From: a virus
DNA: 64,000 bases
Reading direction: 5' to 3' (one strand)
Virus record (IMG/VR): IMGVR_UViG_3300037339_000405
Coordinates: 1 to 64,000 of that record
Shown here: positions 18,165-63,813 of the stretch, piece by piece
Position numbering within the stretch: the first letter of the stretch is position 1
Layout of the letters: the number at the start of each line of letters is the position of its first letter
Translations under genes and position numbers: made by a program
Notes under the pieces: generated by a model
Told to the model about the DNA's origin: nothing
The model's database searches: none
The model's input: the letters and a program-made list of their open reading frames with translations, nothing else

Positions 18165-19553
18165 TTAACTCCTCTCTGACAAAGACGCGGCGTGGTTGAT
18201 GATGTGAGAGATCAGGCCGTCGCCGCGAACGTCCATCTCAAAGTCTTCGATGTGCCCGAAAATGTGCCTCACTACTTTCGGGAATTCGTAAGCCTGAACC
18301 AGCATCCAAGGATGCACCTTGAAAGTCTTCCCACCGATAGGCAGGGTTTCGAGCACCACCGCCTTATCGTTCTCCTTTTGTGCGTAGGCGTGATGTTTGC
18401 CCTCCCGCAAGCAGGAATCCCACCCAAACACCTCAAATTTCCTGAACCCAAGCATGGCCAGAACAGTCAGCCCTCGCAACATCACCGTGGTCCCCCCGGG
18501 AACCGGGTACCACTCGTGATTCGCCCCAGTTTCCTTGGCATAATCCTTGTACTCCTCTTCCACGTAGGACGTTTCCCCAGAGTGCCAAAGCAGTGTCTGG
18601 GCAGGTGGAAGAGATTTTACAGCTTCATGATCCACCTGAGAACAAATCAAATACTTGCAGGTATCAATCACCGGTTTCAGAAAGCGGCCATTGAACTCCC
18701 GGGCATCCATCATGATCTGTGCCGCTGGCCGAATACCCCGCTCTATGAGCCAATTGTAGGTGCCGTTCACCGTCACGATCAGTTCCCCTGCTTTACCTCG
18801 CTCCACGATTTCGTCCTCGTAGTCAAGCAAGGAGGGTCCCCCGGCAAGGACCAGAATTCGGGTATCGGGCTGGCGCTCGTGAGGGCAGACCCCTTTCAAC
18901 CCCAGCCGCAGATTTTTCCTGACGTTCCCACGCAACTCCTCTACCTCGGTATTCACATCCGACCGATCCGCGAAATCCTTTCCTCCGCTATACGCAGAAA
19001 CAAAGAATAAAGCAGCGGAATCTACTTCCTTCTCCCAGAGAACCTTGCAGTAAAACTCCTCCTCCAGCTTCTTCTTCCACCACTCATGGGGGTGAACACT
19101 CAGATGAAGAGGCTCGCCAATCAAGGCCCCCATCACGTCGTCCACGGTAGAGATCGCTAGGTAGACCTTGCCGGCCCCTTTCAAGACGTTCTGGAGCACC
19201 TTGTCCACGTCTTCAGGGGGGATGTGCTCCAGCACGTCAGTACAGTAGCCAAGGTCCACCACGCCCTCCACAGGCTTGGTCAGATCGTGCTGGACGAAAC
19301 GAAGCGTCTCAGACAGAGCACCCCTCACTTGCGGGTCGAGACAGTTCTCGGCGAAGTCCAGCATCTCCACGGTACAACCAACAGAGTGAATGACTTGAGA
19401 CCCGCGCCCGGTGCCGCAGCCAAAGTCTCGCACCGTCTCCGCGTTCACTGGCTTGGCCAGTTCGAGAAACTGAATGGCATGAAACTCCCCCGGAGCAACC
19501 AGACGATACTCTGGGTGATCCCACACCTTCTCGTATTTTTCCCGCTCTTCCAC
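18165..19553 (-). CDS. Fusion of a class I SAM methyltransferase and a Maf/DUF115 (MAF_flag10)-like glycosyltransferase
   Basis: N-terminal 'DFGCGTG', 'LDFA' and 'CTDVLEHI'; C-terminal 'LAGGPSL', 'TVNG', 'MMDA' and 'GGTTV...L..LGF..FEVFGWDSC...HAY'. Confidence 0.8.
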   Translation of the reverse strand: MEEREKYEKVWDHPEYRLVAPGEFHAIQFLELAKPVNAETVRDFGCGTGRGSQVIHSVGCTVEMLDFAENCLDPQVRGALSETLRFVQHDLTKPVEGVVDLGYCTDVLEHIPPEDVDKVLQNVLKGAGKVYLAISTVDDVMGALIGEPLHLSVHPHEWWKKKLEEEFYCKVLWEKEVDSAALFFVSAYSGGKDFADRSDVNTEVEELRGNVRKNLRLGLKGVCPHERQPDTRILVLAGGPSLLDYEDEIVERGKAGELIVTVNGTYNWLIERGIRPAAQIMMDAREFNGRFLKPVIDTCKYLICSQVDHEAVKSLPPAQTLLWHSGETSYVEEEYKDYAKETGANHEWYPVPGGTTVMLRGLTVLAMLGFRKFEVFGWDSCLREGKHHAYAQKENDKAVVLETLPIGGKTFKVHPWMLVQAYEFPKVVRHIFGHIEDFEMDVRGDGLISHIINHAASLSERS

Positions 19554-48774: not shown

Positions 48775-50946
48775 CTATTGCATCATCGTGTCGCCGCAAC
48801 ATGCCGCGATCTCGGCCAGTCCAGCGGGATCTCTACCAATAGCCGGGAACGTCTTCGCCGCCAGCAGCTGATTCAATAGCTCGCGCTCGTGTGGCGCGCA
48901 CAGATCCACCTTGTGAAGAATGGAGGCTTTCTCGATGGAGGAGTACTCGCGCGAAGGCTCATCCAGTTCCATCACCTCGGCCCACTGATTGGCGAGCACC
49001 AACAGATCCGTAGCAGTGTAGCCGGCCCGCTTCACCCCCGCTACCGGAGAGCCCACACCCGGCTGCACCGCAACTCCAACCCCGGCGGGCTTGGGTGGGG
49101 CAATCTTGCCATCAACAGCCGCTTGCGCAAATGGCACCAACTGCGGCGGAGCGTTCAAAGCCGCAGCCTGCGGATCGTACTCAAGGGTCAGGTTGGCAAC
49201 CTGATTAAGGTCCTTCATAAAGCTCTCAGCGCTGGCCTTGTCCTTGCCCATCTCAAGCCCTTTCAGTTGGGCATCGATGTTGCGCAGAGTGAGAGGCTTG
49301 CTGACCATCTTGAATTTGAAAGCCCCTAGCGCCCGGGAAATCGTGCGGTTAATGATCTCGTCAAACTCCTCCCGCTCAGGCTGAAACACCTGAGCCTCAG
49401 TCACCATGTAGCTCGTCATCGCCGTGGCAAACGAGTAGTCCTGCGCCTCTCCTAGAAACAAGGGGTGCAGTCTGAAGCCACGCCTGACACGGTTCTCGGC
49501 ATTCTTGTCGTACTCCTGAAACATCGCATCGTTCTGGCGTGAATCCCCAAAGCGCTCCACCTTCACATCCACCTTGCCAGCCGCATCAAGAGAGCCACTA
49601 CTACTCTGAGCCTCTACTACCGCCGCGCGCTGCTTACTCTTGGCGCCACCTGACAAGTAGTGCAACAGCTGCTCGCGCATGGTCTCCACCACTGACCCGC
49701 CTTGAATGAAAATAATCGCTGGCGGGATGCCCCCCGCGTCAAAAAAATCTAGGTTGAACAATTCACTCTTGCGGGAACCAACCACACTGGGCATCTGATT
49801 GATCCATCGCGGCATGCCGTAGTGAGTGCGGTAATCCAGATCCACTACAAAATGAATGACCTCGCTCGCCATGTTATCCACGGGTACCGTTTCACCCGTT
49901 ACAGCCCAGTCACCCTCTTTACGCTTTAGCACGCGCGAAGCACCAAACTCCTTGTAGAAAATCTGTTGGCTGCCGATGATCTGCACATAGCGGCGCTCCC
50001 GCTTGAGCATGCTGACCGTGCTCTCTTTACCAGAGCGTTCAATTTTCACCTCCACTTCCACAGGCTGATCAAGCTTGACCAGCCGCAGTGAAGGTGATTC
50101 CAGACTGCGGCACAGCACCACGTCATTGGCCGAGTTACGAATCACTTCCAGATAGCCGTTGCCGGTCATCTCCAGATCAAAGCGCAATGCGCGCCTGATA
50201 GTAGTCATGCTCATCCCGGGGTATGGCTCACCGTAGAAGTCCTTGAGCATCTGCTCTTCAGGATCGACAAACGGCGGGCGCACGTCTGGGGGAGGCTCTG
50301 CGCCGGGGGCGCCCGGCAAGCTTTCCGTTGTGGCCCCTATACCTTCTGGCCCGGGGTTCTGCCCCGCAGGGTCCTGCCCCGCAGGGTCCTGTGGAGGTTT
50401 CTGACCGTTCCCAGCGGGCGGGAAGGCTTTGGTGGCGGGCAGCCCCGGGATCTGATCCTGACCGTCTACAGGCGGCTGCTTGAGGCTCTCAGGAGTCTTG
50501 GAGCCCGGCGGCAACTTGATCGGTTTGCCTTCCGAGTCCTGCGGGCCATTAGCCAATCTATCCTGTACTTCCTGCCACTTTCGCAGCTTCTTTTCCCTGT
50601 CTGCCTTCTCTTGGTCAACCGGCTCGACTGTGAAGCCCGTGCCATCAATGTTCACCTCCATGGCCTGCACACACTGGAGCAGTGTGTTGTTCGCGTAGCA
50701 CAGCGCAATCAACGTCTCCGGATTGAACGGAGGCTGTATCGCCATCTTGTTAGACTGCGCGCTGGTATACAAGGATGAAAACTGATCCTCGTATGTCAGA
50801 GGTTGATTGGCAATCAACTCGTTCTCGGCGGAACGTTTGAATGCCTTGGAAAAGTGAACCGCAATATCGGCCGAACTACTACCGGATTTGCGGACGGGTA
50901 TTGCTTTGTGTGCTTTAGCCATAGTGGCCCCCTGAATAGCCAGCAC
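48775..50946 (-). CDS. Portal protein, with a Pro/Gly-rich insertion
   Basis: 'IQPPFNP..L......N..L..CV.AM..NIDG.G', 'D.E.TGNGYLE.IR', 'YG.PRW' and 'N..FF..G.IP'. Confidence 0.9.
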   Translation of the reverse strand: MLAIQGATMAKAHKAIPVRKSGSSSADIAVHFSKAFKRSAENELIANQPLTYEDQFSSLYTSAQSNKMAIQPPFNPETLIALCYANNTLLQCVQAMEVNIDGTGFTVEPVDQEKADREKKLRKWQEVQDRLANGPQDSEGKPIKLPPGSKTPESLKQPPVDGQDQIPGLPATKAFPPAGNGQKPPQDPAGQDPAGQNPGPEGIGATTESLPGAPGAEPPPDVRPPFVDPEEQMLKDFYGEPYPGMSMTTIRRALRFDLEMTGNGYLEVIRNSANDVVLCRSLESPSLRLVKLDQPVEVEVKIERSGKESTVSMLKRERRYVQIIGSQQIFYKEFGASRVLKRKEGDWAVTGETVPVDNMASEVIHFVVDLDYRTHYGMPRWINQMPSVVGSRKSELFNLDFFDAGGIPPAIIFIQGGSVVETMREQLLHYLSGGAKSKQRAAVVEAQSSSGSLDAAGKVDVKVERFGDSRQNDAMFQEYDKNAENRVRRGFRLHPLFLGEAQDYSFATAMTSYMVTEAQVFQPEREEFDEIINRTISRALGAFKFKMVSKPLTLRNIDAQLKGLEMGKDKASAESFMKDLNQVANLTLEYDPQAAALNAPPQLVPFAQAAVDGKIAPPKPAGVGVAVQPGVGSPVAGVKRAGYTATDLLVLANQWAEVMELDEPSREYSSIEKASILHKVDLCAPHERELLNQLLAAKTFPAIGRDPAGLAEIAACCGDTMMQ

Positions 50947-50975: not shown

Positions 50976-53324
50976 TCAATCCAGTGTGAGCTTCTTCAGT
51001 TCCGCAAGATTCGACCCCACTTGGCAATCCACCTTGAAGGTCAGCTGAGGATGCCAGCCCACTTCATGGAACGGCAGATTCTCCATGATCTCCTTGGACA
51101 AGCGCGCGTAGTACTCAAAATTGTTCTCGGGGAAATAGAACAACAGCTGATCGTGCACCATGCCCCACACCGGCATCACGGGAAACAGTCTGCGCTGATC
51201 CACGATTGCCGTGGCCCACAATGCCATGTCACTAAGGGTTCCCTGCACCGGGCTATTGATCGCCTGCCGCCCCGCCTTGCTGTTCATGTACCTGTCAGCG
51301 GAATGAATCAGCGGCAAATGCCGCACGCGCCCCAACGGGCTATAAACCTTGCTGTGCATGCGAGCGAAAGCCTTCTGCTCCTCATGCCACGGCCCCAGCC
51401 TACTATATAGGCTGAAGAAAGCATCTCGGGCTACAGTAGCCTCCTCCAACGTCATCGCCACGCCATACACGTACCACGCGTAATCCTTGAAACCCTCGGC
51501 GCTCATTCCATACAGAAGCCCAAAATTACCCGCCTTAGCCTTCTGCCGGACCAACTCGAACAGCGCGGGATTGGTGCGCGCCAGTTCCAGAAACTGCTCA
51601 AAATTCTTGTACCCTGCAAGCTTGGCGCCGGTCATCGCATGCAAATCGATGCCCTTGCGATACGCAGACAGCATGGTGGGCTCCTCGGCCAGACACGCCG
51701 CGATGCGCAGTTCCCCTTGACTGTAATCATTGGACCCGATCAGCCAGCCTTTCGGCGCCACCAAGCAACGCCGGATCTTCCCGGCCCACTTGGTGTGCTT
51801 GGGCACCGTCTGCCCGGGTGGGTCCTTGACACTGATGCGCCCGGTATTGGTCCCTCCCGCCGATTCATGATCATCCCCAGCGAACAGGAAATGCGTCGGA
51901 TGAAACCGGCCATCGGAACGCAGATGTTCCAAGAAGCCAGTGACATAGGTGTTCAGTGTCTTGGTGGCCTCACCGTACTCATCCAGCAGCTTGATAAACG
52001 GCCCTGCCTCCTCGTGCTCGCTGAACATCTCCAGATGTTTCATCGCCGTGGAGGGCTTGTTGGTCTGCGCTGTCTTCATCTTGGGGCGCAGGTTGAACCC
52101 CGTGGGACTGAACATCACATCGTGCAGGAAGCTTGGCTTGGTGAGATTGATCTCCCCGTCTTTATCGGTGTGCCGCAGAATCAAGCGCGGGCTCACCATC
52201 GACTTCACCTCTTCAGTCTTCTTGGCGATAAACGCGCGCACGTCGGCCTCAAGCTCACGATAGGCTTCGCGGTCCACACACCAGCCTACCCGTTCAACCT
52301 TCTCGTAAGCGCGTGCAGCCGGATGCAGAATCGTGGTGTAGAAACGAGCCAGCCTAGGCTCCTGCAGCAACTCCTGCCTGAGTGGCTCTATGACGCGGTA
52401 ACAAGCATCTGTGTCGCCGCCGGCATACATCAGAAACCGGTCAGGATCTGCAGCTAGCGCAAGATCCATGCGTGACTTGTCCACCATACGGTTGAAGCCA
52501 TCATCGTAGCCGCCAAGATCCGTGTATATCTTAGCGTGCACGTTGAGACTGTTGCTGCGATTCTCATCCACCAGTGAACCTACGAGCATGGTATCCATGC
52601 GAAACGTGGTGCACTCGGTGATCAGCCACAGCTTGGCAATCCAGTTCAAATCAAACTTGAGATTGGCGCCATACAACGCCACGCGCGGGTCAGTGAGTAT
52701 GAAATTGAAGTCGGCGCGCAGCCCCCACCCGATGCGCCGGCACGCCTTGCGATTAGCGAACTTGACCGCATCAGCCGTGCCTGCCTTGACAGTAACCTGC
52801 GCACTGACGATGTACCCAAGTGGATTGTAGGGGTCAACTCCCCGTGTTTCCAGATCCAGAGTGGTACGCACCGGTTTGCCCGTGCGTGCAAACTCGGCCT
52901 TGATGAAATCAATTGCATCGGTGAAATCTTCCACCCAGCGGTACTGACCCATAGGTGGTATGACAGTGCCCGTGTGCACCAGCCTGATCGCCGTGCGCAC
53001 GTCCATCATGGTGTCCACCGCCAACGCGTGGTCCACATCGATGATCTGTGCCGCATAGGTCAACAGGCATTGCGCCCCACACGGCAGCGCAATCGGCTGC
53101 GTGCGCAGGCTGCCTATCGTGCGGTTACGCGGCTTGATTACCCCTGCGTCAGAGATCAACTGACGCGCGTTAGCGCCCATGGCAAGCACCACGTCTCCCG
53201 TACCAAACTCAGGGAGGTGATCGCCTACGGACTCGAATCTATGTGGAGTGCTGGTCCCACTCAACGCTGGGGCCACCACCTTCTTCAGGTGGTGCGGCGT
53301 ATCCGGGGTCCACACTATGAGCAT
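50976..53324 (-). CDS. polA: DNA polymerase family A with 3'-5' exonuclease and an N-terminal UDG-like remnant (likely start MLIVWTP at 53324)
   Basis: Exonuclease motifs 'LDLET', 'NLKFD' and 'YAGGD'; polymerase motifs 'TGRIS', 'DYSQGELR', 'R..AKAGNFGLLYG', 'N.PVQG' and 'VHDQL'. Confidence 0.95.
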   Translation of the reverse strand: MLIVWTPDTPHHLKKVVAPALSGTSTPHRFESVGDHLPEFGTGDVVLAMGANARQLISDAGVIKPRNRTIGSLRTQPIALPCGAQCLLTYAAQIIDVDHALAVDTMMDVRTAIRLVHTGTVIPPMGQYRWVEDFTDAIDFIKAEFARTGKPVRTTLDLETRGVDPYNPLGYIVSAQVTVKAGTADAVKFANRKACRRIGWGLRADFNFILTDPRVALYGANLKFDLNWIAKLWLITECTTFRMDTMLVGSLVDENRSNSLNVHAKIYTDLGGYDDGFNRMVDKSRMDLALAADPDRFLMYAGGDTDACYRVIEPLRQELLQEPRLARFYTTILHPAARAYEKVERVGWCVDREAYRELEADVRAFIAKKTEEVKSMVSPRLILRHTDKDGEINLTKPSFLHDVMFSPTGFNLRPKMKTAQTNKPSTAMKHLEMFSEHEEAGPFIKLLDEYGEATKTLNTYVTGFLEHLRSDGRFHPTHFLFAGDDHESAGGTNTGRISVKDPPGQTVPKHTKWAGKIRRCLVAPKGWLIGSNDYSQGELRIAACLAEEPTMLSAYRKGIDLHAMTGAKLAGYKNFEQFLELARTNPALFELVRQKAKAGNFGLLYGMSAEGFKDYAWYVYGVAMTLEEATVARDAFFSLYSRLGPWHEEQKAFARMHSKVYSPLGRVRHLPLIHSADRYMNSKAGRQAINSPVQGTLSDMALWATAIVDQRRLFPVMPVWGMVHDQLLFYFPENNFEYYARLSKEIMENLPFHEVGWHPQLTFKVDCQVGSNLAELKKLTLD

Positions 53325-53799
53325 CGTCAATCCTCTTCCACTTCTTCTTGATGTACTCGTAATGTGCCAGCAGACACTGCGGCACTTTCCAGATGATGTT
53401 GCGGTATATGTCGGCAAGCGAGCGATTCGTTATGTCCCGATGCCCAGACAGGAACATGCCCCCTTCAGGAAACACGGCGTCACTGTCCCGGATTTTAGCG
53501 CCGTCCAACACCAACACGGACTGACGATCAGTAGCCTTACTGTGCACGACCAACAGAAACAAATCCACGCCCACATGCACCAGCATCCATAGTTGGGACC
53601 CAAGAATACTGGAAGCCTTTACCATCAACGTAAACTCCAAGTCTACCTCTCCCGGAAGGCTCTCCATCTGCACAGTAAGCGCCCCTGAGATCGGCAAGCT
53701 CACAGCACCTACATTCAGCTGATTGCGATCCACCGTCAACGGCATCTGCAAAACGTCAGACATCTTCTTAATGTGCTCTAGGATCACAGGAGTGCTCAT
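53239..53799 (-). CDS. Hypothetical protein
   Basis: 186-aa ORF, ATGA-coupled to the upstream gene. Confidence 0.6.
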   Translation of the reverse strand: MSTPVILEHIKKMSDVLQMPLTVDRNQLNVGAVSLPISGALTVQMESLPGEVDLEFTLMVKASSILGSQLWMLVHVGVDLFLLVVHSKATDRQSVLVLDGAKIRDSDAVFPEGGMFLSGHRDITNRSLADIYRNIIWKVPQCLLAHYEYIKKKWKRIDDAHSVDPGYAAPPEEGGGPSVEWDQHST

Positions 53800-53993
53800 G
53801 CCTTCACCACACGCGTGTGCTTGCCGATCTTCACGCCCATGTAGATCACGTCATAGTGCAACAGCTTGCCACCCGGCACCGCCACACTCTCTTCCTCCAA
53901 ACACGGCACCAGAATCACCGGCTCAGGGCTCAGCCCGAGAAACAACGGACCCAAAACAATAGTGTCTTCTTTTCGCACGGCTACCCGTGGCAT
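53796..53993 (-). CDS. Hypothetical small protein
   Basis: 65-aa ORF overlapping its neighbours in the operon. Confidence 0.5.
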   Translation of the reverse strand: MPRVAVRKEDTIVLGPLFLGLSPEPVILVPCLEEESVAVPGGKLLHYDVIYMGVKIGKHTRVVKA

Positions 53994-54817
53994 AGCTGGC
54001 GCAACTTCTTCATGGACGGCATCGGGGTATCAAATTCAACCCCGCTGCCCACCAATACGGCACCGAGAATCTTGTCCACCGGAGCCTTCTCGGTAGCATC
54101 AAAATGCCCACTCAAGTATTTACCACCGCCGCTCCCATGGCCGACCGCTACCTTCTTCCAATCTTGCGCATCGAAGTCCCCTTCAACACGCACACTCAGC
54201 CGGGCACCTCCCAACTTAGCAGCAACAGCTACTAAAGGCGCCGTTGCCATGGCCACAACGTAGTAGTAACTTTCCGGAGACGTGCCCAGCACTTTCTGAT
54301 ACAGGTGCTGCGCTTGCGCAAGCTTGACCGGCTGATAGTTCTCAGTGGAAACGTAAGCCTTCTCTACTGCAGACGCCGCAGCTGTTAGGCCAACACTGAT
54401 ACCGCTTCCATCCTCTTTTTTGATAGCCTGTACTACGGACTCATCATCAGAAAGAATGTTTTTGATTGAAGACAGCACAGCCTTCTCAACCCCCGTTGGG
54501 TTAAAAACAGCCTGCACCGGGAGGGTCGCCTGTTTATGCACTAGGTTTACGAGAAGCTTGGAGATCACCGGCACCAGAGAAAGAACCACAGTCTTACTGG
54601 CCTGCCCGGCAAGGTAATCCATAATGCTAAATCCGAGAGAGATCCCCGCCGGCACACTGGAGCCTTGCAGTGCCTTGAATTCAAGCCCATCCGGTAGCAC
54701 TAGTTCAACAGAAATGCCGTGATCCTTGGCAGACTGGATCAACTCCCCGTCAACCCCAAATTTATGCAGTAGCTCCCACGGGTTACTCAGACTCTTAACT
54801 TTCAGTTTGATCGCCAT
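53981..54817 (-). CDS. Hypothetical protein (likely start MAIKLKV at 54817)
   Basis: GGAG RBS and its own promoter at 54847-54874. Confidence 0.7.
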   Translation of the reverse strand: MAIKLKVKSLSNPWELLHKFGVDGELIQSAKDHGISVELVLPDGLEFKALQGSSVPAGISLGFSIMDYLAGQASKTVVLSLVPVISKLLVNLVHKQATLPVQAVFNPTGVEKAVLSSIKNILSDDESVVQAIKKEDGSGISVGLTAAASAVEKAYVSTENYQPVKLAQAQHLYQKVLGTSPESYYYVVAMATAPLVAVAAKLGGARLSVRVEGDFDAQDWKKVAVGHGSGGGKYLSGHFDATEKAPVDKILGAVLVGSGVEFDTPMPSMKKLRQLCHG

Positions 54818-54846
54818 TGTCCCGCACTCCGTTGCTCCATATGAGT

Positions 54847-54874
54847 ATGGTACTACATCTGGCTCAAATGTCAA
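54847..54874 (-). promoter_or_regulatory. Sigma70-type promoter TTGACA-N16-TACCAT
   Basis: Read directly from the minus strand. Confidence 0.65.
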
Positions 54875-55527
54875 CCCCAGATGGATAGCTTACTAGTCTC
54901 CTCCGGAGTGCACTTGTCTAGCGCCAGCCGCCGAGCGGCAGCACTAGGCTGATTGAGGGTGAAATCTTTCAAATAGGAATACGGCCCCATGCGCACCGAA
55001 TCCAACTCACGGTTGATCTCCTTAACACTGGCGCGGCTTCCCAGTACGTCTTTGGCCCCATAGTTCTTGACTAGGAAATCAACCTGAGCCCGAGACTCCA
55101 CAGCGCGTGAACAATAGTTCTCCCGCACCCAGCCAATCGGGTCCACCTCCTTGTTCATGATGAACACCAGCGCCGCCAACACCATGCCTGTGCGGCCATG
55201 CCCGCCTAAACATCCCACGTGCACCCGCTTGCCCTGACGCAATAGCTCGGCCAGCCATTCAATCATCTTGCGGAACTCTGTCAGGTTCTTTGGCGCCTGC
55301 ATGTCAGAGATTCCAAAGAACACAAAGACCGGCCCACTCTGCGCATGATTCCACGGATACATGCTCGGATGGCTCGCGGTACCCCAGTCCAGCGACACAT
55401 ACACGTCCAACTCGTCTTTCGGGTCTGCCGCGATACCACCATGGAACTCACCCGCCCCCAGCTTGACTACCGGATGCGAATGCGCACACCTGCTCTTGTC
55501 CTTTCCGAATCCCAATCCGAACTTCAT
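54871..55527 (-). CDS. Cys-based (CX5R) protein-tyrosine / dual-specificity phosphatase 1
   Basis: 'HVGCLGGHGRTG' P-loop, 'ISDMQAP' acid loop and 'AVES.AQ' Q-loop. Confidence 0.9.
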   Translation of the reverse strand: MKFGLGFGKDKSRCAHSHPVVKLGAGEFHGGIAADPKDELDVYVSLDWGTASHPSMYPWNHAQSGPVFVFFGISDMQAPKNLTEFRKMIEWLAELLRQGKRVHVGCLGGHGRTGMVLAALVFIMNKEVDPIGWVRENYCSRAVESRAQVDFLVKNYGAKDVLGSRASVKEINRELDSVRMGPYSYLKDFTLNQPSAAARRLALDKCTPEETSKLSIWG

Positions 55528-56603
55528 GCCACCGGCCTCTCTGTCACGTAAGCGTAATCTGTGCCATTCACGAAAAACTTCTTGTTCTCCAGCAAAGCCT
55601 CCTGCAACAGCTTGGCTGCCTGCGCCTGTTCGTGCTTTGCGGCAAAACTACTAATCCCATGCTTAGCCACCTGCTTAGTCTTCTCCGCTGCATAATGACC
55701 GACTGCCCCAAGAGCTTCCACAGCAAACCAGTCCACATACCCGTTGAATCCTTCCACTCCTGCAGCCTGAGCACAATTAAATGCTGTTAACACCCTCGGG
55801 CTCATCCAGTAGGAATACGCAGGTACGTTTGCATTTTTCGAGTCATTGACCAACTCTGGAACCTGACCAGAGCGCTGCACGTCCAGAATCTTGCGCAGAA
55901 CAAGGTTGTTCTGCGCCACCACGAACATGCCCTTGTTGAAGATAGGTCCACCGTTGTGGACAAGGGTAAACACGGTATCCAGCAGGATCTCCGCGCTGAT
56001 CTCCCCGAACACGTACTTACGCAGCGTCTCAGCAACGCTGCCCCACTTGTGCCCACCAAAGGACCCCGAAAAATTGGCATTGAAAAATAGATCGGTAACC
56101 CCCGCCACATACGGACCTAGGCACATGTCCGGTGGCGTCTGCAAAAAATACTCCGCCGTGTTTTCACTCCCCAATCCTCGGATATTACAATTGAACGCTT
56201 CAAAAGTATTTCCGTACTTCATACATACGTCATGGCGCGTGGTGTTGTGGTACGCATGACGAGACTCGCGCGTAATGATCAACAGCAAATAGTTGATCAT
56301 GTACCGTGCAATAAGATTGGCCTGTATCACGTAGTCTTCACAAATGGCGCACTCTGCTGCCGTGAGAGGCATATGCTGATCACGCTTGGCAGCTATCTTG
56401 GCGAAGGCGTGGTTCAACATGTAGAAACACACCGCAGCTTCATCTGGATTGATCCACTGGCCTGCCGCGCCATAGCTACTCCTGAAGTGCCGCACGGCCC
56501 CTGCGACCGCCGGCACACGAGAATCCTCTACGCTGCGTTTCATGAACAGGGGCCGGGATCTGAACCCTGCTATCGTGTCCTGTCGCTGGTGATACATCCG
56601 CAC
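55524..56603 (-). CDS. Enzyme-like hypothetical protein in the dikinase/phosphatase operon
   Basis: 359 aa with motif-like segments 'RESRH', 'FGGHKWG' and 'D..F.LVHNGGPIFNKG'. Confidence 0.75.
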   Translation of the reverse strand: MRMYHQRQDTIAGFRSRPLFMKRSVEDSRVPAVAGAVRHFRSSYGAAGQWINPDEAAVCFYMLNHAFAKIAAKRDQHMPLTAAECAICEDYVIQANLIARYMINYLLLIITRESRHAYHNTTRHDVCMKYGNTFEAFNCNIRGLGSENTAEYFLQTPPDMCLGPYVAGVTDLFFNANFSGSFGGHKWGSVAETLRKYVFGEISAEILLDTVFTLVHNGGPIFNKGMFVVAQNNLVLRKILDVQRSGQVPELVNDSKNANVPAYSYWMSPRVLTAFNCAQAAGVEGFNGYVDWFAVEALGAVGHYAAEKTKQVAKHGISSFAAKHEQAQAAKLLQEALLENKKFFVNGTDYAYVTERPVA

Positions 56604-56634
56604 TCCGTTGCAGTTGATTGCATCAGACTACATA

Positions 56635-57171
56635 CTACACCAGATCAGCTAGGATTGTCAATCCACGATCACGCAGCCATAGCTTGAGACGCAGCTTGCG
56701 AAGGCCCCACTTCATAAGCTCCATCGGAAAATCCCTCACGTAGATTTCCTGCTCAGGGGTCTCCACCGCCGCCGGCCGAAACGACTGCCTAACGTATTCA
56801 ACCGGAGTGGGCTCACCACAAGCCCGCGCCAGAAGCGCTAGGAAGGTCCCAGTGCGCCCCAGACCCCCAAGGCACCCCACGAACACCTGCTGCCCATCAA
56901 TCGCCCTGCGCAGGGCCTGAAGGATCGTACAAGCCATGTGGTCAGGATCGGACGGAATCCCCATATCCCTGATAGGCACTTCAGCATCTGACGCCTTGGG
57001 CTCCTCCGGAGCAAGCTTGATCATCCAAACCCCACTCAACGGGGTAGGACCACTCTTGTAAGGCCCTCCCCAAAGCCGCAGCTTGGCGCTGCCAAACATT
57101 ACATCCATCGGGAAGGCTACACCCCCCGCTAGGACCCTAGCCCTATTGGGAGGGGATTGCACCTTTGCCAT
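56635..57171 (-). CDS. Cys-based (CX5R) phosphatase 2
   Basis: 'FVGCLGGLGRTG', 'PIRDMGIP' and 'AVETPEQ'. Confidence 0.9.
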   Translation of the reverse strand: MAKVQSPPNRARVLAGGVAFPMDVMFGSAKLRLWGGPYKSGPTPLSGVWMIKLAPEEPKASDAEVPIRDMGIPSDPDHMACTILQALRRAIDGQQVFVGCLGGLGRTGTFLALLARACGEPTPVEYVRQSFRPAAVETPEQEIYVRDFPMELMKWGLRKLRLKLWLRDRGLTILADLV

Positions 57172-57535
57172 TGCCGGACTCCTTTCCTAACTGGCACATT
57201 GGACAGTATATCATCCGACTGACCAACCCTTCGTCACAAAAGTCGCAGCCGTCACCATTACAGTTCTCACAGCCGTCAAACACGGCCAGCTTCCCTAGAT
57301 CCCGACAGGTTTTACACGTGTACCCGGGAGCCCAGCCATCAACCACCTTCAGATCCATCACACGATTCCCCTCCACTCTGAAGAGAAATTCGTGCCATCG
57401 GCGGTTGCCCTCCGGATGTGTAACCCGGGCTGAAGCAACTACCGCAGATTGCAACTGGCCTGCGTCCAACCCAAATTCTTTAGCCCGGCGCAGCAGATGC
57501 AAAGGTATCGTAAAGCCCCGCTTTGCGTAGAGCAT
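57143..57535 (-). CDS. Zn-finger protein (four CxxC pairs, DnaJ-CRD-like CxxCxGxG)
   Basis: CKTC, CENCNGDG, CDFCDEG and CPMC. Confidence 0.65.
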   Translation of the reverse strand: MLYAKRGFTIPLHLLRRAKEFGLDAGQLQSAVVASARVTHPEGNRRWHEFLFRVEGNRVMDLKVVDGWAPGYTCKTCRDLGKLAVFDGCENCNGDGCDFCDEGLVSRMIYCPMCQLGKESGNGKGAIPSQ

Positions 57536-57827
57536 ACAGCGATTCTCGCAGAATCTTGATCTCCCGTGGGGCTTCAATCAGCAGTCTGGCCAAGACAGAC
57601 TCGTTGGGCCTTGGATCACCACTTGACTTGTAAACCCGCTCCCTCGGCCTGCCCATGCTGATGAATACGCCGGGGTACACCTCCACCGACTCTTTATCAG
57701 TGATCGTGTAGAACGCGGGACCACACTTCAGAATCGCGTGCTCATGCCCTTTCAACAGCACCACGTGCACTTCTTCATCATCAAGATAGAGTTTGTCTCC
57801 CTCATGAATTCCTAGAGCGAGTGCCAC
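57480..57827 (-). CDS. CsrA/RsmA-like RNA-binding protein (extended)
   Basis: C-terminal 'ARLLIEAPREIKILRESL' matches the CsrA signature VR(L/I)GIxAPxx(V/I)xI(L/H)REE; the N-terminal strand pattern is also CsrA-like. Confidence 0.6.
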   Translation of the reverse strand: MALALGIHEGDKLYLDDEEVHVVLLKGHEHAILKCGPAFYTITDKESVEVYPGVFISMGRPRERVYKSSGDPRPNESVLARLLIEAPREIKILRESLYALRKAGLYDTFASAAPG

Positions 57828-58272
57828 GGCGGGCTCCTTTGGAAAAGATCAAACGATGCGCAGCTTGGGTCAGAGACCATGTGCTACCACCCGACACTCC
57901 TTTACGGGCTTGCACAACCATAACCAACCCTCGAATGCGCAGCACAGTCAACTGGGACGCCACTTCACTTGGCGTATGCTTGTCGCGCCGCCGCAAGTTT
58001 AGCATTTCGGTGATCTCGCCGGTAGTCGCCGCCTCCAACGCTGCCAGCTGCATGATGCACCGATGCAGATTGCTGCCAGCTTCCGGCAGCCGCACCTGCA
58101 TGCTGGTGTCAAAATGCTCGATGATCATCTCTTTCAGTCTAGTCTGGACCACGCGACGATACCCACAGAGACATCGCAGCCACACGTCCTGATGGTCTCG
58201 CTGAAACCACGCAGACAAACTTAAGCACTTCGGGCACTCTACTTTTTCCCGCATGCCATCCGCAGTCCCCAT
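57802..58272 (-). CDS. Zn-ribbon plus winged-helix putative transcriptional regulator
   Basis: CPKC...CLCG ribbon, then 'ATTGEITEML......SEVASQLTVLR.RGLV......G..GGSTW.LT' wHTH. Confidence 0.7.
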   Translation of the reverse strand: MGTADGMREKVECPKCLSLSAWFQRDHQDVWLRCLCGYRRVVQTRLKEMIIEHFDTSMQVRLPEAGSNLHRCIMQLAALEAATTGEITEMLNLRRRDKHTPSEVASQLTVLRIRGLVMVVQARKGVSGGSTWSLTQAAHRLIFSKGARRGTRSRNS

Positions 58273-58305
58273 GGGACCCGGATTGTAACCCGCTCCTTTT
58301 TGCAG

Positions 58306-60495
58306 TCAACTGCACGAGAGCACCGATGTGGCCAATTGCCTACGCGACACGCCCACCGTAACCACCGACGCATACTTTCCTTTGGGCAACCCTCTCGCGG
58401 GGGAAAACAACGTCAGCTGCTCGGCAGCACTCTGCTTCAGTTCCAGTACTTTAGTAAGGGCGCGCGGATCAAATTTCACACCGCCCTCTTGGTAGTCAAG
58501 CCACACCAATCCAGTCTGACTCACAAGAGATCCAATATCCTCCACCACGTCCATCACGCGATACCCCATGGCACTCAGTTTCGCAACCAGCGGAGGCGTG
58601 AGCAGATCGTGCGGCAGAATCCAGAAATTCTTCACCGGGTGACTTTTGGCGAACTCAATCAGAAACTCAATCTTCTTTATGAACACGTGCACTGAATTCG
58701 GCAGAATCTTAGGCTCCAGTGTCTGCAACAGATCGTAGTCACCACCACCGTTAACTTGCAAGCACAACAGAGTCATATCAATCACCATGGTGCGATTGCC
58801 AGCAGCCTTCAGCACCTCCAGAAAATTCGTGCCCCGGAACCCGTCGATCTCCATAGCATATGAAGCAAAAAGCACCTTGTCACCTGCTGCAGCCACTTCA
58901 GCTGCATTGGTGCACGTCTCGAATACGCCATACCGGGTGAACAGCATCGAATAAAACTTGTCCACCTCACTACTCATGCCTGCCAACACCGGAACCTCAA
59001 TATCCACCCACACGCGCCCAGTGTCACCGCACAGTGTCACCTTGCTACCCTTAGTGATCGCGCTTATGTCACCGCATCCCACCACGCACGGCAGATTCAT
59101 ATCACGCGCAACCACAGCAGCGTGCGCTGTTGAACCCCCAGTGCGGGTGACGATCCCGCGCGCTGCGCGCATACCCTTGATATCGTCGGGGTTGGTTTCG
59201 TCAGTGACCAGAATCACGCCTTCAGCACTCCTCTGCTCAGCTTCTTTGGAAGAGAAAACCGCGAACCCCGTTGCTACGCCACCGGAAGCAGCAATACCCT
59301 TCAAGGTCTCCTTGCCAGTGAACGATGCCGGGATAACAGGCTTGGCAGCCTCAAACAACTGTGCAAGTGTCACGTGTTTGACTGCCATATCCAGATCGAT
59401 CAGATTGGACGCCGCCATCTCAGTAGCGATACGCAGCGCAGCCCTCGCAGTACGCTTGGCAGCACGGGTCTGCAACACATAGGTGAGCCCTTTCTCTACA
59501 GTAAGCTCCACATCCTGTGCATCACCGTTGAAAGCCTCCAATTTCTTGACCGTGGTGAACACTTCTTCCGCCACGTACTGATCCCACACGGCTAGCTGAT
59601 CGATTGGCATGGGAGTCTTGATGCCCGCCACCACATCCTCTCCCTGTGCCATCGGAAGAAACTCCCCCACCACTTTGTTTTCGCCGGTAGAAGGATCACG
59701 CGAGAATGCGACCACGGTACAGCTGTTCACGTCCAAATTGCCGAAAACCATCTGCTGGATCACCACCGCCGTGCCAAGATCATGCGGGATGCCATTCATA
59801 TCACGGTAGACTTTTGCGCGCTCGTTACCCCAACTGGCGAACACCGCGCATATGGACTGAATCAACTGGCCCTTAGCCTTCGGAAATTTCTGGCCGGTCT
59901 CCTTCTCGAAAAGCTTGAAGCGCTCGCGCAACCCAAGGTTCTGAAACTTGTGGCGCTCGATGCCGAATACCACACTGCCGAACATCTCAACCAGCTTGCC
60001 ACGCACTTCGTCAGCGCAACTCTGCCCCAAACTGGCTCTCCAATGACTAGCGTTGGTTTCATCGATGCCCACGTTGAGAATTGTGTCCATCATGCCGGGC
60101 ATAGAAAACTTGGCGCCGCTACGCACGCTCACCAGCGGCATCACGTCACCCACCCCCTGCATGGTATTGATTATTTGCGGCAGCAGTTCGTTGAGAAGTG
60201 AGACTACCGCATCAGGGTCCTGCATATAGAGCTTGCAGGCCGTCACCGGAATGATTATGGCAGGAGGAACTCGAAACCCAGCCCGGTGCATACGCACCAG
60301 ACCGTAACCCTTACCCCCAAGTAAATCCAGATCCTCGGGAGCGTTATCCAACGTGTAGAACGGGAGCCCTTGCATCTCGCACTCCTTTGCCAGACCCATG
60401 CCTGCAATGATACCAGATTGGTACTGCTTGTCAAGCTCCTCCGCGTAAGCCTGCTGCCATGATTTAAGTGACGCCGGCAGCTTCTTCTTGACCAC
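58306..60495 (-). CDS. PPDK-derived dikinase: ATP-grasp plus phospho-His swivel domains, with an unrecognised C-terminal domain instead of the pyruvate-binding barrel
   Basis: 'LGGKG', 'VSVRSGA..SMPGMMDTILN.G', 'QQMVFGN', 'AQGEDVVAG..TP', 'LQTR..KRT' and catalytic 'GGSTAHAAVVAR'; 729 aa, and no barrel motifs in the last ~225 aa. Confidence 0.9.
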   Translation of the reverse strand: MVKKKLPASLKSWQQAYAEELDKQYQSGIIAGMGLAKECEMQGLPFYTLDNAPEDLDLLGGKGYGLVRMHRAGFRVPPAIIIPVTACKLYMQDPDAVVSLLNELLPQIINTMQGVGDVMPLVSVRSGAKFSMPGMMDTILNVGIDETNASHWRASLGQSCADEVRGKLVEMFGSVVFGIERHKFQNLGLRERFKLFEKETGQKFPKAKGQLIQSICAVFASWGNERAKVYRDMNGIPHDLGTAVVIQQMVFGNLDVNSCTVVAFSRDPSTGENKVVGEFLPMAQGEDVVAGIKTPMPIDQLAVWDQYVAEEVFTTVKKLEAFNGDAQDVELTVEKGLTYVLQTRAAKRTARAALRIATEMAASNLIDLDMAVKHVTLAQLFEAAKPVIPASFTGKETLKGIAASGGVATGFAVFSSKEAEQRSAEGVILVTDETNPDDIKGMRAARGIVTRTGGSTAHAAVVARDMNLPCVVGCGDISAITKGSKVTLCGDTGRVWVDIEVPVLAGMSSEVDKFYSMLFTRYGVFETCTNAAEVAAAGDKVLFASYAMEIDGFRGTNFLEVLKAAGNRTMVIDMTLLCLQVNGGGDYDLLQTLEPKILPNSVHVFIKKIEFLIEFAKSHPVKNFWILPHDLLTPPLVAKLSAMGYRVMDVVEDIGSLVSQTGLVWLDYQEGGVKFDPRALTKVLELKQSAAEQLTLFSPARGLPKGKYASVVTVGVSRRQLATSVLSCS

Positions 60496-60817: not shown

Positions 60818-60843
60818 ACCTGCCTCCGTGCAATCAATTGCAA

Positions 60844-62685: not shown

Positions 62686-63813
62686 CTAACCCAATGGGGC
62701 CTTTCTCACTGAAATCCTCGGCAAGCGGGTCGTCACCGGCTTGGCTCTGACCCCTTTACCAGTAGCGCTGTCGTACTCAGCAACTTTAATCGCCGGCTTG
62801 TCTCTTGCCACTTCGTTGTTGAACACAGACCATTTCTCAAAGTGAGTAGACAGCTGCTCAAAATTCTTCTCATTGTTGAAGCCACTTAGAATTGCTGAAG
62901 GAGGAACCAGCCTCCCACGCTGACCCGGTCCCTTGCCTCTCCACCTTTCCACCGCACGCTGCGCCGCTAGCTGCGGGGGCAAATGGACGAAAGCCCCCTG
63001 TACACTGTAACCAGCCTTGGAAAAACTGGTTATCCTATCTAAAGCTGGGTCATAGCTCTTCATCGTAGCGTCAAGAACCACGTTATACCCGGCAGCTTTT
63101 GCTCTTCGTGCCGCCATATCAAAAAGATGCCCGCTTTCCTCATGGTAAATGGCAGCCTTGGATTCCCAACCCTTGACTTTGTCACGCTCGGCCAGCCTCT
63201 CCTTGAAGTGATCGGCATCAATCACAAGAGTCTTAGCCGGATCATACAAATGCAGAGACACTGGCCGAGAATCACTGCGTGCACCGCTTTTTCCACTGCC
63301 TCCACGCCCCCCCAATACCAAAGCCGTTGGTGCAACACCCACCGGCGGTATAGCGTTAGCGGCACCCTTGAAGAACTCAACAAGGATCTCATCATGCACC
63401 TTCGTGCGTTCCGCACTAAAAGAATCTTTCGTGGCCCCGGCATGAACCATGTGAGTACTTTTGCCGGCAGCTATATCTGCGTCCACTGCGGCCATTTCAC
63501 GCAGAAACTCCGCATGATCCGCCTTGCTTAACGTAGCAAAGAGGATCTCGTCTTCTATTTCAGCCCTCCCAGACTGGGTTTCTACTCGCGGGTCGGCGGA
63601 CTCATTGAATAGAGAAGACGCGGAACCTCCGGGGGTGACCCTCTCTCCCGGCCGCGCATTGATGGCTTCTCGTACCTTTACCGGGCGCTTGCGCACCATC
63701 GCGCCACCAACACTGGCGCCTAACGATTTAATCCACTTACCATATTCATCCCTAGGCTGGCTGGGGTCGAATTCCTTACGGACGTTCTGGAAAATGGAAG
63801 GGATGTTCAACAT
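62686..63813 (-). CDS. Zeta-toxin-family P-loop kinase with an N-terminal DPxQPRD tag
   Basis: 'LGGRGGSGKS', 'VIDAD.FK', 'HEES', 'NVVLDAT' and 'A..RA..R....GR.VP'. Confidence 0.85.
   Translation of the reverse strand: MLNIPSIFQNVRKEFDPSQPRDEYGKWIKSLGASVGGAMVRKRPVKVREAINARPGERVTPGGSASSLFNESADPRVETQSGRAEIEDEILFATLSKADHAEFLREMAAVDADIAAGKSTHMVHAGATKDSFSAERTKVHDEILVEFFKGAANAIPPVGVAPTALVLGGRGGSGKSGARSDSRPVSLHLYDPAKTLVIDADHFKERLAERDKVKGWESKAAIYHEESGHLFDMAARRAKAAGYNVVLDATMKSYDPALDRITSFSKAGYSVQGAFVHLPPQLAAQRAVERWRGKGPGQRGRLVPPSAILSGFNNEKNFEQLSTHFEKWSVFNNEVARDKPAIKVAEYDSATGKGVRAKPVTTRLPRISVRKAPLG

What the first reader, a model, noticed from the sequence alone, without database searches (positions are those of the whole stretch)
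53981..60495. Phage operon pairing a PPDK-derived dikinase of unknown acceptor with two CX5R phosphatases and enzyme-like unknown proteins
Seen: 58306..60495 keeps the PPDK nucleotide-binding motifs and the catalytic His (GGSTAHAAVVAR, His codon 59122-59124), but the pyruvate/PEP barrel is replaced by ~225 unrecognised residues. Nearby are two intact Cys phosphatases (CLGGLGR, CLGGHGR) flanking a 359-aa protein with motif-like RESRH, GGHKW and HNGGPIFNKG segments, followed by another unknown protein. Known: the same ATP-grasp plus His-swivel chemistry is redirected to non-pyruvate acceptors in rifampin phosphotransferase and glucan-water dikinase, and the latter works opposite CX5R glucan phosphatases. 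Inference: this is not a central-carbon auxiliary gene but a writer/eraser phosphorylation system or a His-to-Cys relay. It could act on a nucleotide, nucleic acid end, sugar or host protein, and the 359-aa protein may supply the acceptor site in trans.
Basis: partly seen in the sequence, partly recalled or inferred. Interest (0 to 1): 0.82.

Follow-up and report, generated by a model that had tools for sequence, protein, structure and literature searches.

The report
Phage dikinase–phosphatase cassette beside polymerase
A widespread lineage of ~80-100 kb phages always carries, next to its own DNA polymerase, a pyruvate-phosphate-dikinase relative with a decayed substrate barrel, one or two cysteine phosphatases and a new-fold enzyme-like protein; this is a conserved cassette of unknown function, not the "PPDK metabolic gene" it is annotated as.

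Summary
ORF 58306-60495 keeps the PPDK ATP-binding and phospho-histidine domains (PDB PPDK E 4e-83). Both CX5R phosphatases look catalytically intact. The 359-aa protein carries the quoted motifs.

One correction: the last ~230 residues are not an unrecognisable replacement. They model, at moderate confidence, as a small acidic TIM barrel. PPDK, PEP-synthase and Enzyme I barrels are among the tied best structural hits. No catalytic residue is conserved in it, so PEP/pyruvate chemistry is very unlikely.

The order dikinase, Zn-ribbon/wHTH protein, Zn-finger protein, PTP-A, 359-aa protein, PTP-B, 297-aa protein, PolA, portal recurs in about 30 divergent phage genomes. All 39 complete phage records with the 359-aa protein also have the dikinase. 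All belong to one phage lineage, so co-occurrence does not prove a shared pathway.

The 359-aa family has over 2,000 clusters and no Pfam hit. It folds confidently (pLDDT 94) into an all-helical structure with no PDB match.

Function is unresolved. My best guess (0.33) is phosphoryl transfer in trans onto a nucleotide or DNA substrate, serving the adjacent polymerase. The published "modified DNA" of the relative DLP3 is mostly explained by missing restriction sites.

The parts
58306..60495 (-). PPDK-derived dikinase, 729 aa (whole gene)
   Evidence: Pfam PPDK_N and PEP-utilizers. PHROG 18609 'kinase', E 3e-135. Solved PPDKs E 4e-83 over residues 57-490. More than 100 invariant positions in the N-terminal two thirds across orthologues.
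59311..60327 (-). ATP-grasp nucleotide-binding part (residues ~57-395)
   Evidence: Aligned to PPDK residues 17-390. GGKG, SVRSG, MPGMMDT, QGEDVV and TR..KR are invariant.
59005..59310 (-). Phospho-histidine swivel domain (residues ~396-497); catalytic His458 is codon 59122-59124
   Evidence: PF00391 E 2.8e-24. GG.T.HAAVV.R is invariant.
58309..59004 (-). Decayed, acidic TIM-barrel-like C-terminal domain (residues 498-729)
   Evidence: AF2 pLDDT 67. TIM barrels only among the top hits, PEP-utilizer barrels tied. No Pfam hit. hhalign probability 0.1%. Only D573 and P599 reach about 81% conservation. Median pI 5.0.
57802..58272 (-). 156-aa Zn-ribbon (CPKC...C.CG) plus winged-helix-like protein
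   Evidence: Alignment A8: invariant C13, C16, C34, C36 and a C-terminal GGSTW motif. Weak Replic_Relax hit. Syntenic in most loci. pI about 9.
57143..57577 (-). 144-aa protein with a THPxGNRR motif and a DnaJ-like CxxCxGxGC zinc finger
   Evidence: Alignment A9. Syntenic. No Pfam hit.
56635..57171 (-). PTP-A, DSP-type Cys phosphatase (VGCLGGLGRTG)
   Evidence: PF22784 PTP-SAK, 32.9 bits against cut-off 27. Conserved Asp, C-x5-R-T and AVET..Q. The profile is closest to archaeal minimal PTPs and DUSP23.
55524..56603 (-). 359-aa enzyme-like protein of a new family and fold (u359). The true start is probably 56603 or 56597, not the database's Met21.
   Evidence: PHROG 20946, unknown function. No Pfam, NCBIfam or PADLOC hit. 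2,206 clusters at E<=1e-3. 23 invariant columns in 62 sequences, including R, E, R, H, H, N, K, D and Q. AF2 pLDDT 93.8, all-helical. No PDB match: Foldseek best E 0.43, VIA best Z 4.3.
54871..55527 (-). PTP-B, DSP-type Cys phosphatase (VGCLGGHGRTG) with an N-terminal C..SHP motif
   Evidence: PF22785, 32.8 bits against cut-off 27. Alignment A5. Absent in SIO-2-type Vibrio phages.
53981..54874 (-). 297-aa protein: variable N-terminus and a conserved ~115-aa C-terminal domain
   Evidence: Alignment A2, invariant residues from L185 to P286. No Pfam or PDB sequence hit. The same domain ends a 729-aa protein in Rhizobium phage TM16.
50976..53417 (-). Family A DNA polymerase with 3'-5' exonuclease; constant downstream neighbour
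   Evidence: PF00476 E 2.5e-60 and PF01612. Adjacent in every locus, yet about 50 kb from the primase and DnaB genes.
56609..56622 (.). TGCA-RYYRRY-TGCA palindrome just upstream of u359
   Evidence: 14 copies in the window against 0.05 expected.
58301..58314 (.). The same palindrome between the dikinase stop and the 156-aa gene
60829..60842 (.). The same palindrome upstream of the dikinase

Best explanation
This is a conserved phage cassette for phosphoryl transfer onto a nucleotide or DNA-linked substrate, working with the phage's own family A polymerase.

Shown: the dikinase keeps everything needed to load its swivelling His458 from ATP. Its own barrel has lost every conserved catalytic residue.

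Inferred:
- The phosphoryl (or pyrophosphoryl) group is delivered in trans.
- The most likely acceptor site is a substrate held by the 359-aa new-fold protein, whose invariant Arg/His/Lys/Asp/Gln residues look like an anion-binding active site.
- The two CX5R phosphatases either strip phosphates from competing canonical nucleotides or remove the activating phosphate afterwards.
- The Zn-ribbon/wHTH protein regulates the system or directs it to DNA.
- The outcome would be a non-canonical nucleotide pool or a DNA modification. This parallels the logic of the T4 hmC, SPO1 hmU or Z-genome clusters: synthase, kinase, canonical-nucleotide phosphatase and own polymerase.
For: - The N-terminal and His domains are intact and strongly conserved.
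- The barrel has decayed and is cut to about 135 aa in L022.
- u359 is highly conserved, with a polar invariant set and a confident new fold.
- The cassette always abuts PolA between the terminase and portal genes, while the other replication genes lie far away.
- Vibrio phage PG28 has a dCTP deaminase directly upstream of the dikinase.
- The genome has no other nucleotide-metabolism genes.
- DLP3 DNA reportedly resisted SmaI, ClaI, EcoRI and NdeI, for which sites do exist. Only 4 of 36 enzymes cut DLP5.
- No cassette protein was found in DLP3 virions, so it acts inside the cell.
- From established knowledge: PPDK relatives activate hydroxyl or enol oxygens by phosphorylation (rifampin phosphotransferase, PigC/RedH; both appear). 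PTP-fold enzymes such as baculovirus BVP hydrolyse nucleoside and RNA triphosphates.
Against: - No substrate is identified and nothing was tested biochemically.
- No thymidylate-synthase-like or TET/JBP enzyme is present to make a hydroxylated base.
- This genome and DLP3 both avoid 6-bp palindromes strongly. That suggests their DNA is exposed to restriction enzymes and not blanket-protected.
- 10 of the 15 enzymes behind the DLP3 'modified DNA' claim have no site in its genome.
- DLP3 and DLP5 carry separate sugar-nucleotide and glycosyltransferase genes that could explain any modification. This phage lacks them.
- The phosphatases are closest to minimal protein tyrosine phosphatases.
- Synteny within a single lineage does not prove a functional link.
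Confidence: 0.33

Rival explanations
1. Protein-directed phosphorelay or writer/eraser for host takeover. The dikinase acts like an ATP-driven Enzyme I, passing phosphate from His458 to a host or phage protein. The two phosphatases reverse this mark or erase host phospho-signals.
For: - The PEP-utilizer His domain is the module that phosphorylates HPr in the PTS (matches to Enzyme I).
- The barrel is acidic and evolves fast, as expected for a protein-contact or dimerisation surface.
- The phosphatases are closest to archaeal protein tyrosine phosphatases and DUSP23.
- The phage invests heavily in protein-modifying effectors: ADP-ribosyltransferases, an ADP-ribosylglycohydrolase and a Zeta-like kinase.
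Against: - No HPr-like acceptor was found.
- The cassette proteins lack the capsid-cargo peptide carried by the ADP-ribosyltransferases and were absent from DLP3 virions.
- It does not explain the strict adjacency to PolA, nor the conserved enzyme-like u359.
Confidence: 0.2
2. There is no joint pathway. The genes are neighbours only because this phage lineage inherits a fixed gene order. The dikinase, each phosphatase and u359 have separate roles.
For: Every locus found has the same flanks, PolA and portal, and belongs to one lineage. No fusion of u359 with any partner was found. PTP-B can be lost on its own.
Against: - Order and tight spacing are kept at only 30-45% protein identity, across hosts from Vibrio to Rhizobium to Helicobacteraceae.
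- 39 of 39 complete genomes with u359 keep the dikinase about 3 kb away.
- The decayed barrel implies that the dikinase needs a partner.
Confidence: 0.15
3. Counter-defence enzymes. The kinase and phosphatases inactivate or rebuild a small-molecule immune signal or cofactor. Examples are phosphorylating or dephosphorylating a signalling nucleotide, or recycling ADP-ribose to NAD+ by activation and displacement, as in NARP1.
For: The NARP1 logic (pyrophosphorylate, then displace) fits a dikinase plus a transferase-like unknown protein. This phage encodes five ADP-ribosyltransferase domains and an ADP-ribosylglycohydrolase that would consume NAD+.
Against: There is no match to any PADLOC family or to known anti-defence families. 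Relatives without the ADP-ribosyltransferase load keep the cassette. This is pure analogy.
Confidence: 0.1
4. Polysaccharide phosphorylation as in plant starch. The dikinase phosphorylates host glycogen or another glycan and the two DSP phosphatases remove the phosphate (a GWD with SEX4/LSF2 analogue).
For: This is the only known natural pairing of a PPDK-type dikinase with CX5R DSP phosphatases, and two phosphatases are present as in plants (established knowledge; domains).
Against: No carbohydrate-binding module or glycoside hydrolase domain is found in any cassette protein. u359 matches no glycosidase fold. The context is replication and packaging.
Confidence: 0.05
5. A genuine pyruvate-phosphate dikinase used as an auxiliary metabolic gene, as annotated in published phage genomes.
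For: The annotation appears in DLP3, DLP5, Virtus and other records. The C-terminal domain has a TIM-barrel fold like the PEP/pyruvate domain.
Against: - The barrel is about 120 residues shorter than in PPDK.
- There is no PF02896 match and hhalign probability is 0.1%.
- No conserved Arg, Cys, Glu or Asn is present.
- It scores below both PPDK equivalog cut-offs.
Confidence: 0.03

Closest known systems
Pyruvate, phosphate dikinase (e.g. Clostridium symbiosum, PDB 1KBL/1DIK)
   Same: The ATP-grasp nucleotide-binding domain and the phospho-His swivel domain align over residues 57-490 at E 4e-83. Domain order is the same, and a TIM-barrel-like domain follows the His domain.
   Different: The barrel has about 230 residues instead of about 340. 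It has no detectable sequence relation and none of the PEP/pyruvate/Mg ligands conserved. It scores below the equivalog cut-offs.
Glucan, water dikinase with SEX4/LSF2 glucan phosphatases (plant starch)
   Same: A PPDK-family dikinase paired with CX5R dual-specificity phosphatases.
   Different: No carbohydrate-binding modules. The genes sit in a phage replication and packaging context, with extra conserved unknown proteins.
Rifampin phosphotransferase and prodigiosin ligases PigC/RedH
   Same: PPDK-derived enzymes that redirect the His-borne phosphate to a non-pyruvate oxygen. The shared His domain is detected.
   Different: Those enzymes carry their own dedicated substrate-binding domain. 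Here the cis domain has decayed and a separate protein is the candidate acceptor site.
Phage thymidine hypermodification (5-HMUDK kinase plus amino-acid:DNA transferase, formerly aGPT-Pplase; PMC8989533, PMC13229309)
   Same: The logic 'phosphorylate a DNA-borne oxygen, then act on it', with phage-encoded genes clustered near replication or packaging genes.
   Different: That kinase is a P-loop enzyme. No hydroxymethylase or TET/JBP enzyme is present here, and u359 gives no aGPT-Pplase Pfam hit.
Archaeal minimal protein tyrosine phosphatases (Tk-PTP 5Z59, SsoPTP 2I6I) and human DUSP23
   Same: Best sequence matches of the phage phosphatases: D-loop, C-x5-R-(S/T) and the AVET..Q motif.
   Different: Identity is only about 25-30%. 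PTP-B has an extra Cys/His N-terminal motif and a long tail. The substrates are unknown.

Membership tests
Pyruvate, phosphate dikinase (PPDK, EC 2.7.9.1) | N-terminal ATP-grasp nucleotide-binding domain (PF01326) | tested here: met
   E 4.8e-36. Aligns to solved PPDKs.
Pyruvate, phosphate dikinase (PPDK, EC 2.7.9.1) | Swivelling phospho-histidine domain with the T-x-H motif (PF00391) | tested here: met
   E 2.8e-24. GGSTAHAAVVAR, with His458 invariant.
Pyruvate, phosphate dikinase (PPDK, EC 2.7.9.1) | PEP/pyruvate-binding barrel recognisable by sequence (PF02896), with conserved Arg/Glu/Asp/Asn/Cys ligands | tested here: not met
   No hit. hhalign probability 0.1%. No residue after 496 is 90% conserved or more in 21 orthologues.
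Pyruvate, phosphate dikinase (PPDK, EC 2.7.9.1) | C-terminal domain has the TIM-barrel fold of PEP-utilizing enzymes | tested here: inconclusive
   The model has only pLDDT 67. TIM barrels fill the hit list, and PEP synthase, PPDK and Enzyme I barrels (Z 7.9-8.8) are tied with unrelated barrels (Z up to 9.6).
Pyruvate, phosphate dikinase (PPDK, EC 2.7.9.1) | Reaches the NCBIfam equivalog cut-off | tested here: not met
   TIGR01828: 408 bits against 843. NF004531: 397 against 456.
Cys-based PTP/DSP phosphatases | C-x5-R-(S/T) P-loop and an upstream general-acid Asp | tested here: met
   VGCxGGxGRTG is invariant and the Asp is at least 90% conserved in 19 sequences. Pfam scores are above the cut-offs.
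GWD/SEX4-type glucan phosphorylation system | Carbohydrate-binding modules on the dikinase or phosphatase (CBM45, CBM48 or CBM20) | tested here: not met
   No such Pfam domain at E<=0.01 in any cassette protein.
Thymidine hypermodification pathway | A source of 5-hydroxymethyl-pyrimidine (thymidylate-synthase homologue or TET/JBP dioxygenase) | tested here: not met
   PF00303 is absent from the complete genome. PF12851 is absent here and in five relatives at E<=1. Divergent phage dioxygenases could escape this model.
Thymidine hypermodification pathway | aGPT-Pplase / amino-acid:DNA transferase domain | tested here: inconclusive
   u359 has no Pfam hit at E<=0.01. No solved structure of that family was available for fold comparison.
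PTS Enzyme I-type protein phosphorelay | An HPr-like phosphocarrier partner | not tested
   None was recognised among the neighbours. The conserved His of the 144-aa protein is not invariant.

The most novel reading that the evidence does not exclude
The cassette is a previously unknown kind of enzyme system. A PPDK-derived 'free' phospho-histidine donor has given up its own substrate barrel. It feeds a new-fold enzyme (the 359-aa family, over 2,000 sequence clusters) that makes a new nucleotide or DNA modification, or a new phospho-metabolite. Two Cys phosphatases act as editors. The system would be universal in a large, globally distributed phage lineage.
Probability: 0.25. Interest if true: 0.85.

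Novelty: new variant of a known kind. Interest (0 to 1): 0.62.

Why it matters
Dozens of published phage genomes call this gene a pyruvate phosphate dikinase and discuss it as a glycolytic auxiliary gene. The evidence here says that reading is almost certainly wrong.

The gene belongs to a fixed cassette with a very large, unannotated protein family of a fold not seen in the PDB. That family is a good target for structure determination and enzymology. If the cassette feeds the adjacent polymerase, it would be a new route to non-canonical phage DNA. If it acts on proteins, it would be the first ATP-driven Enzyme I-like relay in a virus.

The work also shows that the published 'modified DNA' of Stenotrophomonas phage DLP3 rests largely on enzymes that have no site in its genome.

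Tried and rejected
- **Megablast** of the 6.5-kb region against phages found nothing.
- **C-terminal domain, word-index search** found only the query itself.
- **u359 and u297 profiles against PDB sequences** gave nothing below E 0.3.
- **ESM Atlas** for u359 and u297 returned only low-confidence models and no usable hit.
- **Fused forms of u359**: none among longer proteins, which is weak evidence.
- **BFVD fold search for u359** returned only unnamed members of its own family.
- **PADLOC and NCBIfam** gave nothing beyond the dikinase and weak PTP hits.
- **Capsid-cargo peptide K[YF][DN]PxQPR** is not present on any cassette protein.
- **Glycosyltransferase, epimerase and ParB**, as found in relatives, are absent from this genome.
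- **TET/JBP** is absent.
- **The NAR 2026 paper on 'DLP3'** (PMC13326640) concerns an Acinetobacter phage of the same name, not the Stenotrophomonas relative, so I rejected it as evidence.
- **Literature searches** for a described function of the cassette found only 'PPDK auxiliary gene' statements.
- **HPr-like role for the 144-aa protein**: considered and dropped, because its His is not invariant.

Full report
**What is there.**
- The window is the first 64 kb of a complete 95,622-bp phage genome with direct terminal repeats. Almost all genes are on the minus strand.
- Between the portal gene (48775-50946) and a Zeta-toxin-like kinase gene (62686-63813) the order is: family A DNA polymerase (50976-53417); small ORFs; a 297-aa protein (53981-54874); PTP-B (54871-55527); a 359-aa protein (55524-56603); PTP-A (56635-57171); a 144-aa protein (57143-57577); a 156-aa protein (57802-58272); and the 729-aa dikinase (58306-60495).

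**The dikinase.**
- Pfam finds PPDK_N and the PEP-utilizers mobile domain but no PEP-utilizers_C.
- Residues 57-490 align with solved PPDKs at E 4e-83, with all nucleotide-binding motifs and the T-x-H catalytic motif present.
- NCBIfam scores stay below both PPDK equivalog cut-offs.
- In 10 and then 21 orthologues the first two thirds hold over 100 invariant positions. After residue 496 nothing reaches 90% conservation; D573 and P599 reach about 81%.

**The C-terminal domain.**
- It gives no Pfam hit in any of 12 orthologues.
- hhalign against a true PPDK barrel gives probability 0.1%.
- It is acidic, with median pI 5.0, and is cut to about 135 residues in one relative.
- Folded alone with a 12-sequence alignment, it gave a moderate model (pLDDT 67, pTM 0.67) of alternating strands and helices.
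- Foldseek and the exhaustive VIA search both return TIM barrels only. PEP synthase (9dae, Z 8.8, 208 residues aligned, the longest alignment), maize PPDK (Z 8.0), Enzyme I (Z 7.9) and pyruvate kinase lie within one Z unit of the best hit, Z 9.6.
- The simplest reading is a shrunken, decayed descendant of the PEP/pyruvate barrel that keeps a structural role and has lost its active site. The barrel was not replaced, but PEP/pyruvate chemistry is very unlikely.

**The phosphatases.**
- Both pass the Pfam cut-offs for DSP-type PTP domains.
- Across 19 orthologues the general-acid Asp, VGCxGGxGRTG and an AVE(T/S)..Q motif are conserved, so both look active.
- Their joint profile is closest to archaeal minimal protein tyrosine phosphatases (Tk-PTP, SsoPTP) and DUSP23.
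- The PHROG name 'thymidylate synthase' for this family, copied into DLP3, DLP5 and SIO-2 records, is a misnomer.

**The 359-aa protein (u359).**
- It has no Pfam, NCBIfam, PADLOC or PDB sequence hit.
- The family is very large: 448 hits in the word-index search and 2,206 50%-identity clusters at E<=1e-3 in the exhaustive search. All members are 330-390 aa and single-domain. No fused forms were found.
- In 62 sequences, 23 columns are invariant: R92, E93, R95, H96, GG..W, H196, N197, G, P, K204, D221, Q223 (numbering of the 339-aa database form).
- The AF2 model is confident (pLDDT 93.8, pTM 0.88) and all-helical.
- It matches nothing in the PDB. Foldseek's best E is 0.43 and VIA's best Z is 4.3, where unrelated helical proteins usually score higher. 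In BFVD it matches only unnamed relatives.
- It is a conserved, enzyme-like protein of an undescribed fold.

**The other cassette proteins.**
- The 156-aa protein is a four-Cys zinc ribbon followed by a winged-helix-like segment, and is basic.
- The 144-aa protein has a THPxGNRR motif and a DnaJ-like CxxCxGxGC finger.
- The 297-aa protein has a variable N-terminus and a conserved ~115-aa C-terminal domain. That domain also ends a 729-aa protein in Rhizobium phage TM16.

**Co-occurrence.**
- The same order, usually ending in PolA then portal, is found in: Stenotrophomonas phage DLP3; Rhodobacter phage RcZahn; Vibrio phage PG28; Rhizobium phage TM16; 13 IMG/VR contigs; and 9 contigs binned with Alpha-, Beta- and Gammaproteobacteria, Helicobacteraceae and Acidobacteriaceae. 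Protein identity across these is 30-50%.
- Vibrio phage SIO-2 keeps the order but has only one phosphatase.
- In the 50,697 phage records, u359 occurs in 40. All 39 complete genomes among them also carry the dikinase about 3 kb away.
- Full-length PPDKs on unverified 'Listeria', 'Enterococcus' and faecal contigs lack the cassette.
But every case has the same flanks and belongs to one lineage, so linkage by descent cannot be separated from linkage by function.
- One structural argument does point to function. PolA and the cassette sit together between the terminase and portal genes, far from the primase, helicase and RecA genes.

**Is it DNA modification?**
- DLP3 DNA was reported resistant to 15 restriction enzymes, and only 4 of 36 enzymes cut DLP5.
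- I counted sites. 10 of the 15 enzymes have no site in DLP3, and 25 of the 64 hexamer palindromes are absent from its genome. Only SmaI (68), ClaI (18), EcoRI (7), NdeI (4) and XbaI (1) could report on modification.
- The genome studied here also avoids palindromes: 14 of 64 are absent, and the median observed/expected ratio is 0.76-0.78 against 1.00 for non-palindromes, p 2.5e-12. Such avoidance argues that the DNA of this lineage is exposed to restriction enzymes. This weakens the case for blanket hypermodification.
- DLP3 and DLP5 also carry sugar-nucleotide and glycosyltransferase genes that could account for a modification. This phage has none.
- No thymidylate-synthase homologue or TET/JBP enzyme is present.
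- Cassette proteins were not detected in DLP3 virions. They also lack the cargo peptide carried by this phage's ADP-ribosyltransferases.

**How it most likely works.**
- Shown: a conserved machine for ATP-dependent loading of a swivelling histidine; a decayed cis barrel; two intact Cys phosphatases; a conserved new-fold protein; and fixed linkage to PolA.
- Inferred: the phospho-His (or pyrophospho-His) is delivered in trans.
- I rank a nucleotide or DNA-directed role first (0.33). The reasons are the PolA linkage, the dCTP deaminase next to the dikinase in PG28, and the lack of any other nucleotide-metabolism genes. A kinase, canonical-nucleotide phosphatases, a synthase-like unknown protein and an own polymerase also mirror known non-canonical-DNA clusters.
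- The rivals are: a protein phosphorelay or writer/eraser (0.20); no joint pathway (0.15); small-molecule counter-defence (0.10); glycan phosphorylation (0.05); and a true PPDK (0.03).

**Regulation.** The palindrome TGCA-RYYRRY-TGCA occurs 14 times in the window against 0.05 expected. Three copies lie in the cassette: upstream of the dikinase, of the 156-aa gene and of u359. The others precede structural genes, which suggests shared regulation with them.

**Novelty.** The papers I found treat the gene as a PPDK auxiliary metabolic gene. No paper found describes the cassette, the decayed barrel or the u359 family. The enzyme families are known, but the arrangement and the partner protein are new. 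I class it as a new variant of a known kind, with a real chance (about 0.25) that the system as a whole is new.

Noticed in passing
whole genome (window 1-64000 and beyond); DLP3 record MT110073 (L039, L040, L001): Extreme avoidance of 6-bp palindromes. 14 of 64 are absent here and 25 of 64 in DLP3. 10 of the 15 restriction enzymes used to claim modified DNA in DLP3 have no site in its genome.
   Followed up: yes
window 2599, 9103, 14236, 19571, 25537, 30226, 36781, 39399, 43327, 44407, 48393, 56609, 58301, 60829: The 14-bp palindrome TGCA-RYYRRY-TGCA occurs 14 times against 0.05 expected, often just upstream of gene starts. It is a candidate operator or promoter element, possibly for the Zn-ribbon/wHTH protein.
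   Followed up: partly
window 56635-57171 and 54871-55527; PHROG 17568: PHROG 17568 is labelled 'thymidylate synthase' but its members are DSP-type Cys phosphatases. The wrong name has spread to the DLP3, DLP5 and SIO-2 records.
   Followed up: yes
window 62686-63813: A 375-aa protein with a Zeta-toxin-type P-loop kinase domain (PF06414, E 3e-19) lies upstream of the cassette.
   Followed up: no
genome 81125-83965 (L012:17125-19965); L022:15043-19374; L018:8547-11723: The large terminase carries an intein with an HNH endonuclease. PolA genes of two relatives carry inteins with LAGLIDADG domains or are extended.
   Followed up: partly
window 18165-19553: A fusion of a SAM methyltransferase domain with an MptE-like domain (6-hydroxymethylpterin diphosphokinase-like), of unknown role.
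   Followed up: no
L034 (Thalassobaculaceae chromosome OZ001190, 4.65 Mb): Only a dikinase fragment, PTP-A and u359 are detectable inside a bacterial chromosome, with no PTP-B, PolA or portal. This could be a decaying prophage or a reduced cassette.
   Followed up: no
L008 (Vibrio phage PG28), L027 (Rhizobium phage TM16), L040 (DLP3): A conserved block of glycosyltransferase, ParB-like protein, small unknown protein and terminase lies upstream of the cassette in three branches of the lineage but is missing from this phage. It resembles the ParB-linked DNA-modification neighbourhoods described in PMC13229309.
   Followed up: partly
literature: Name collision: the 'DLP3' of the NAR 2026 paper on arabinosyl-5-hydroxycytosine is an Acinetobacter phage, not Stenotrophomonas vB_SmaS_DLP_3.
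   Followed up: yes
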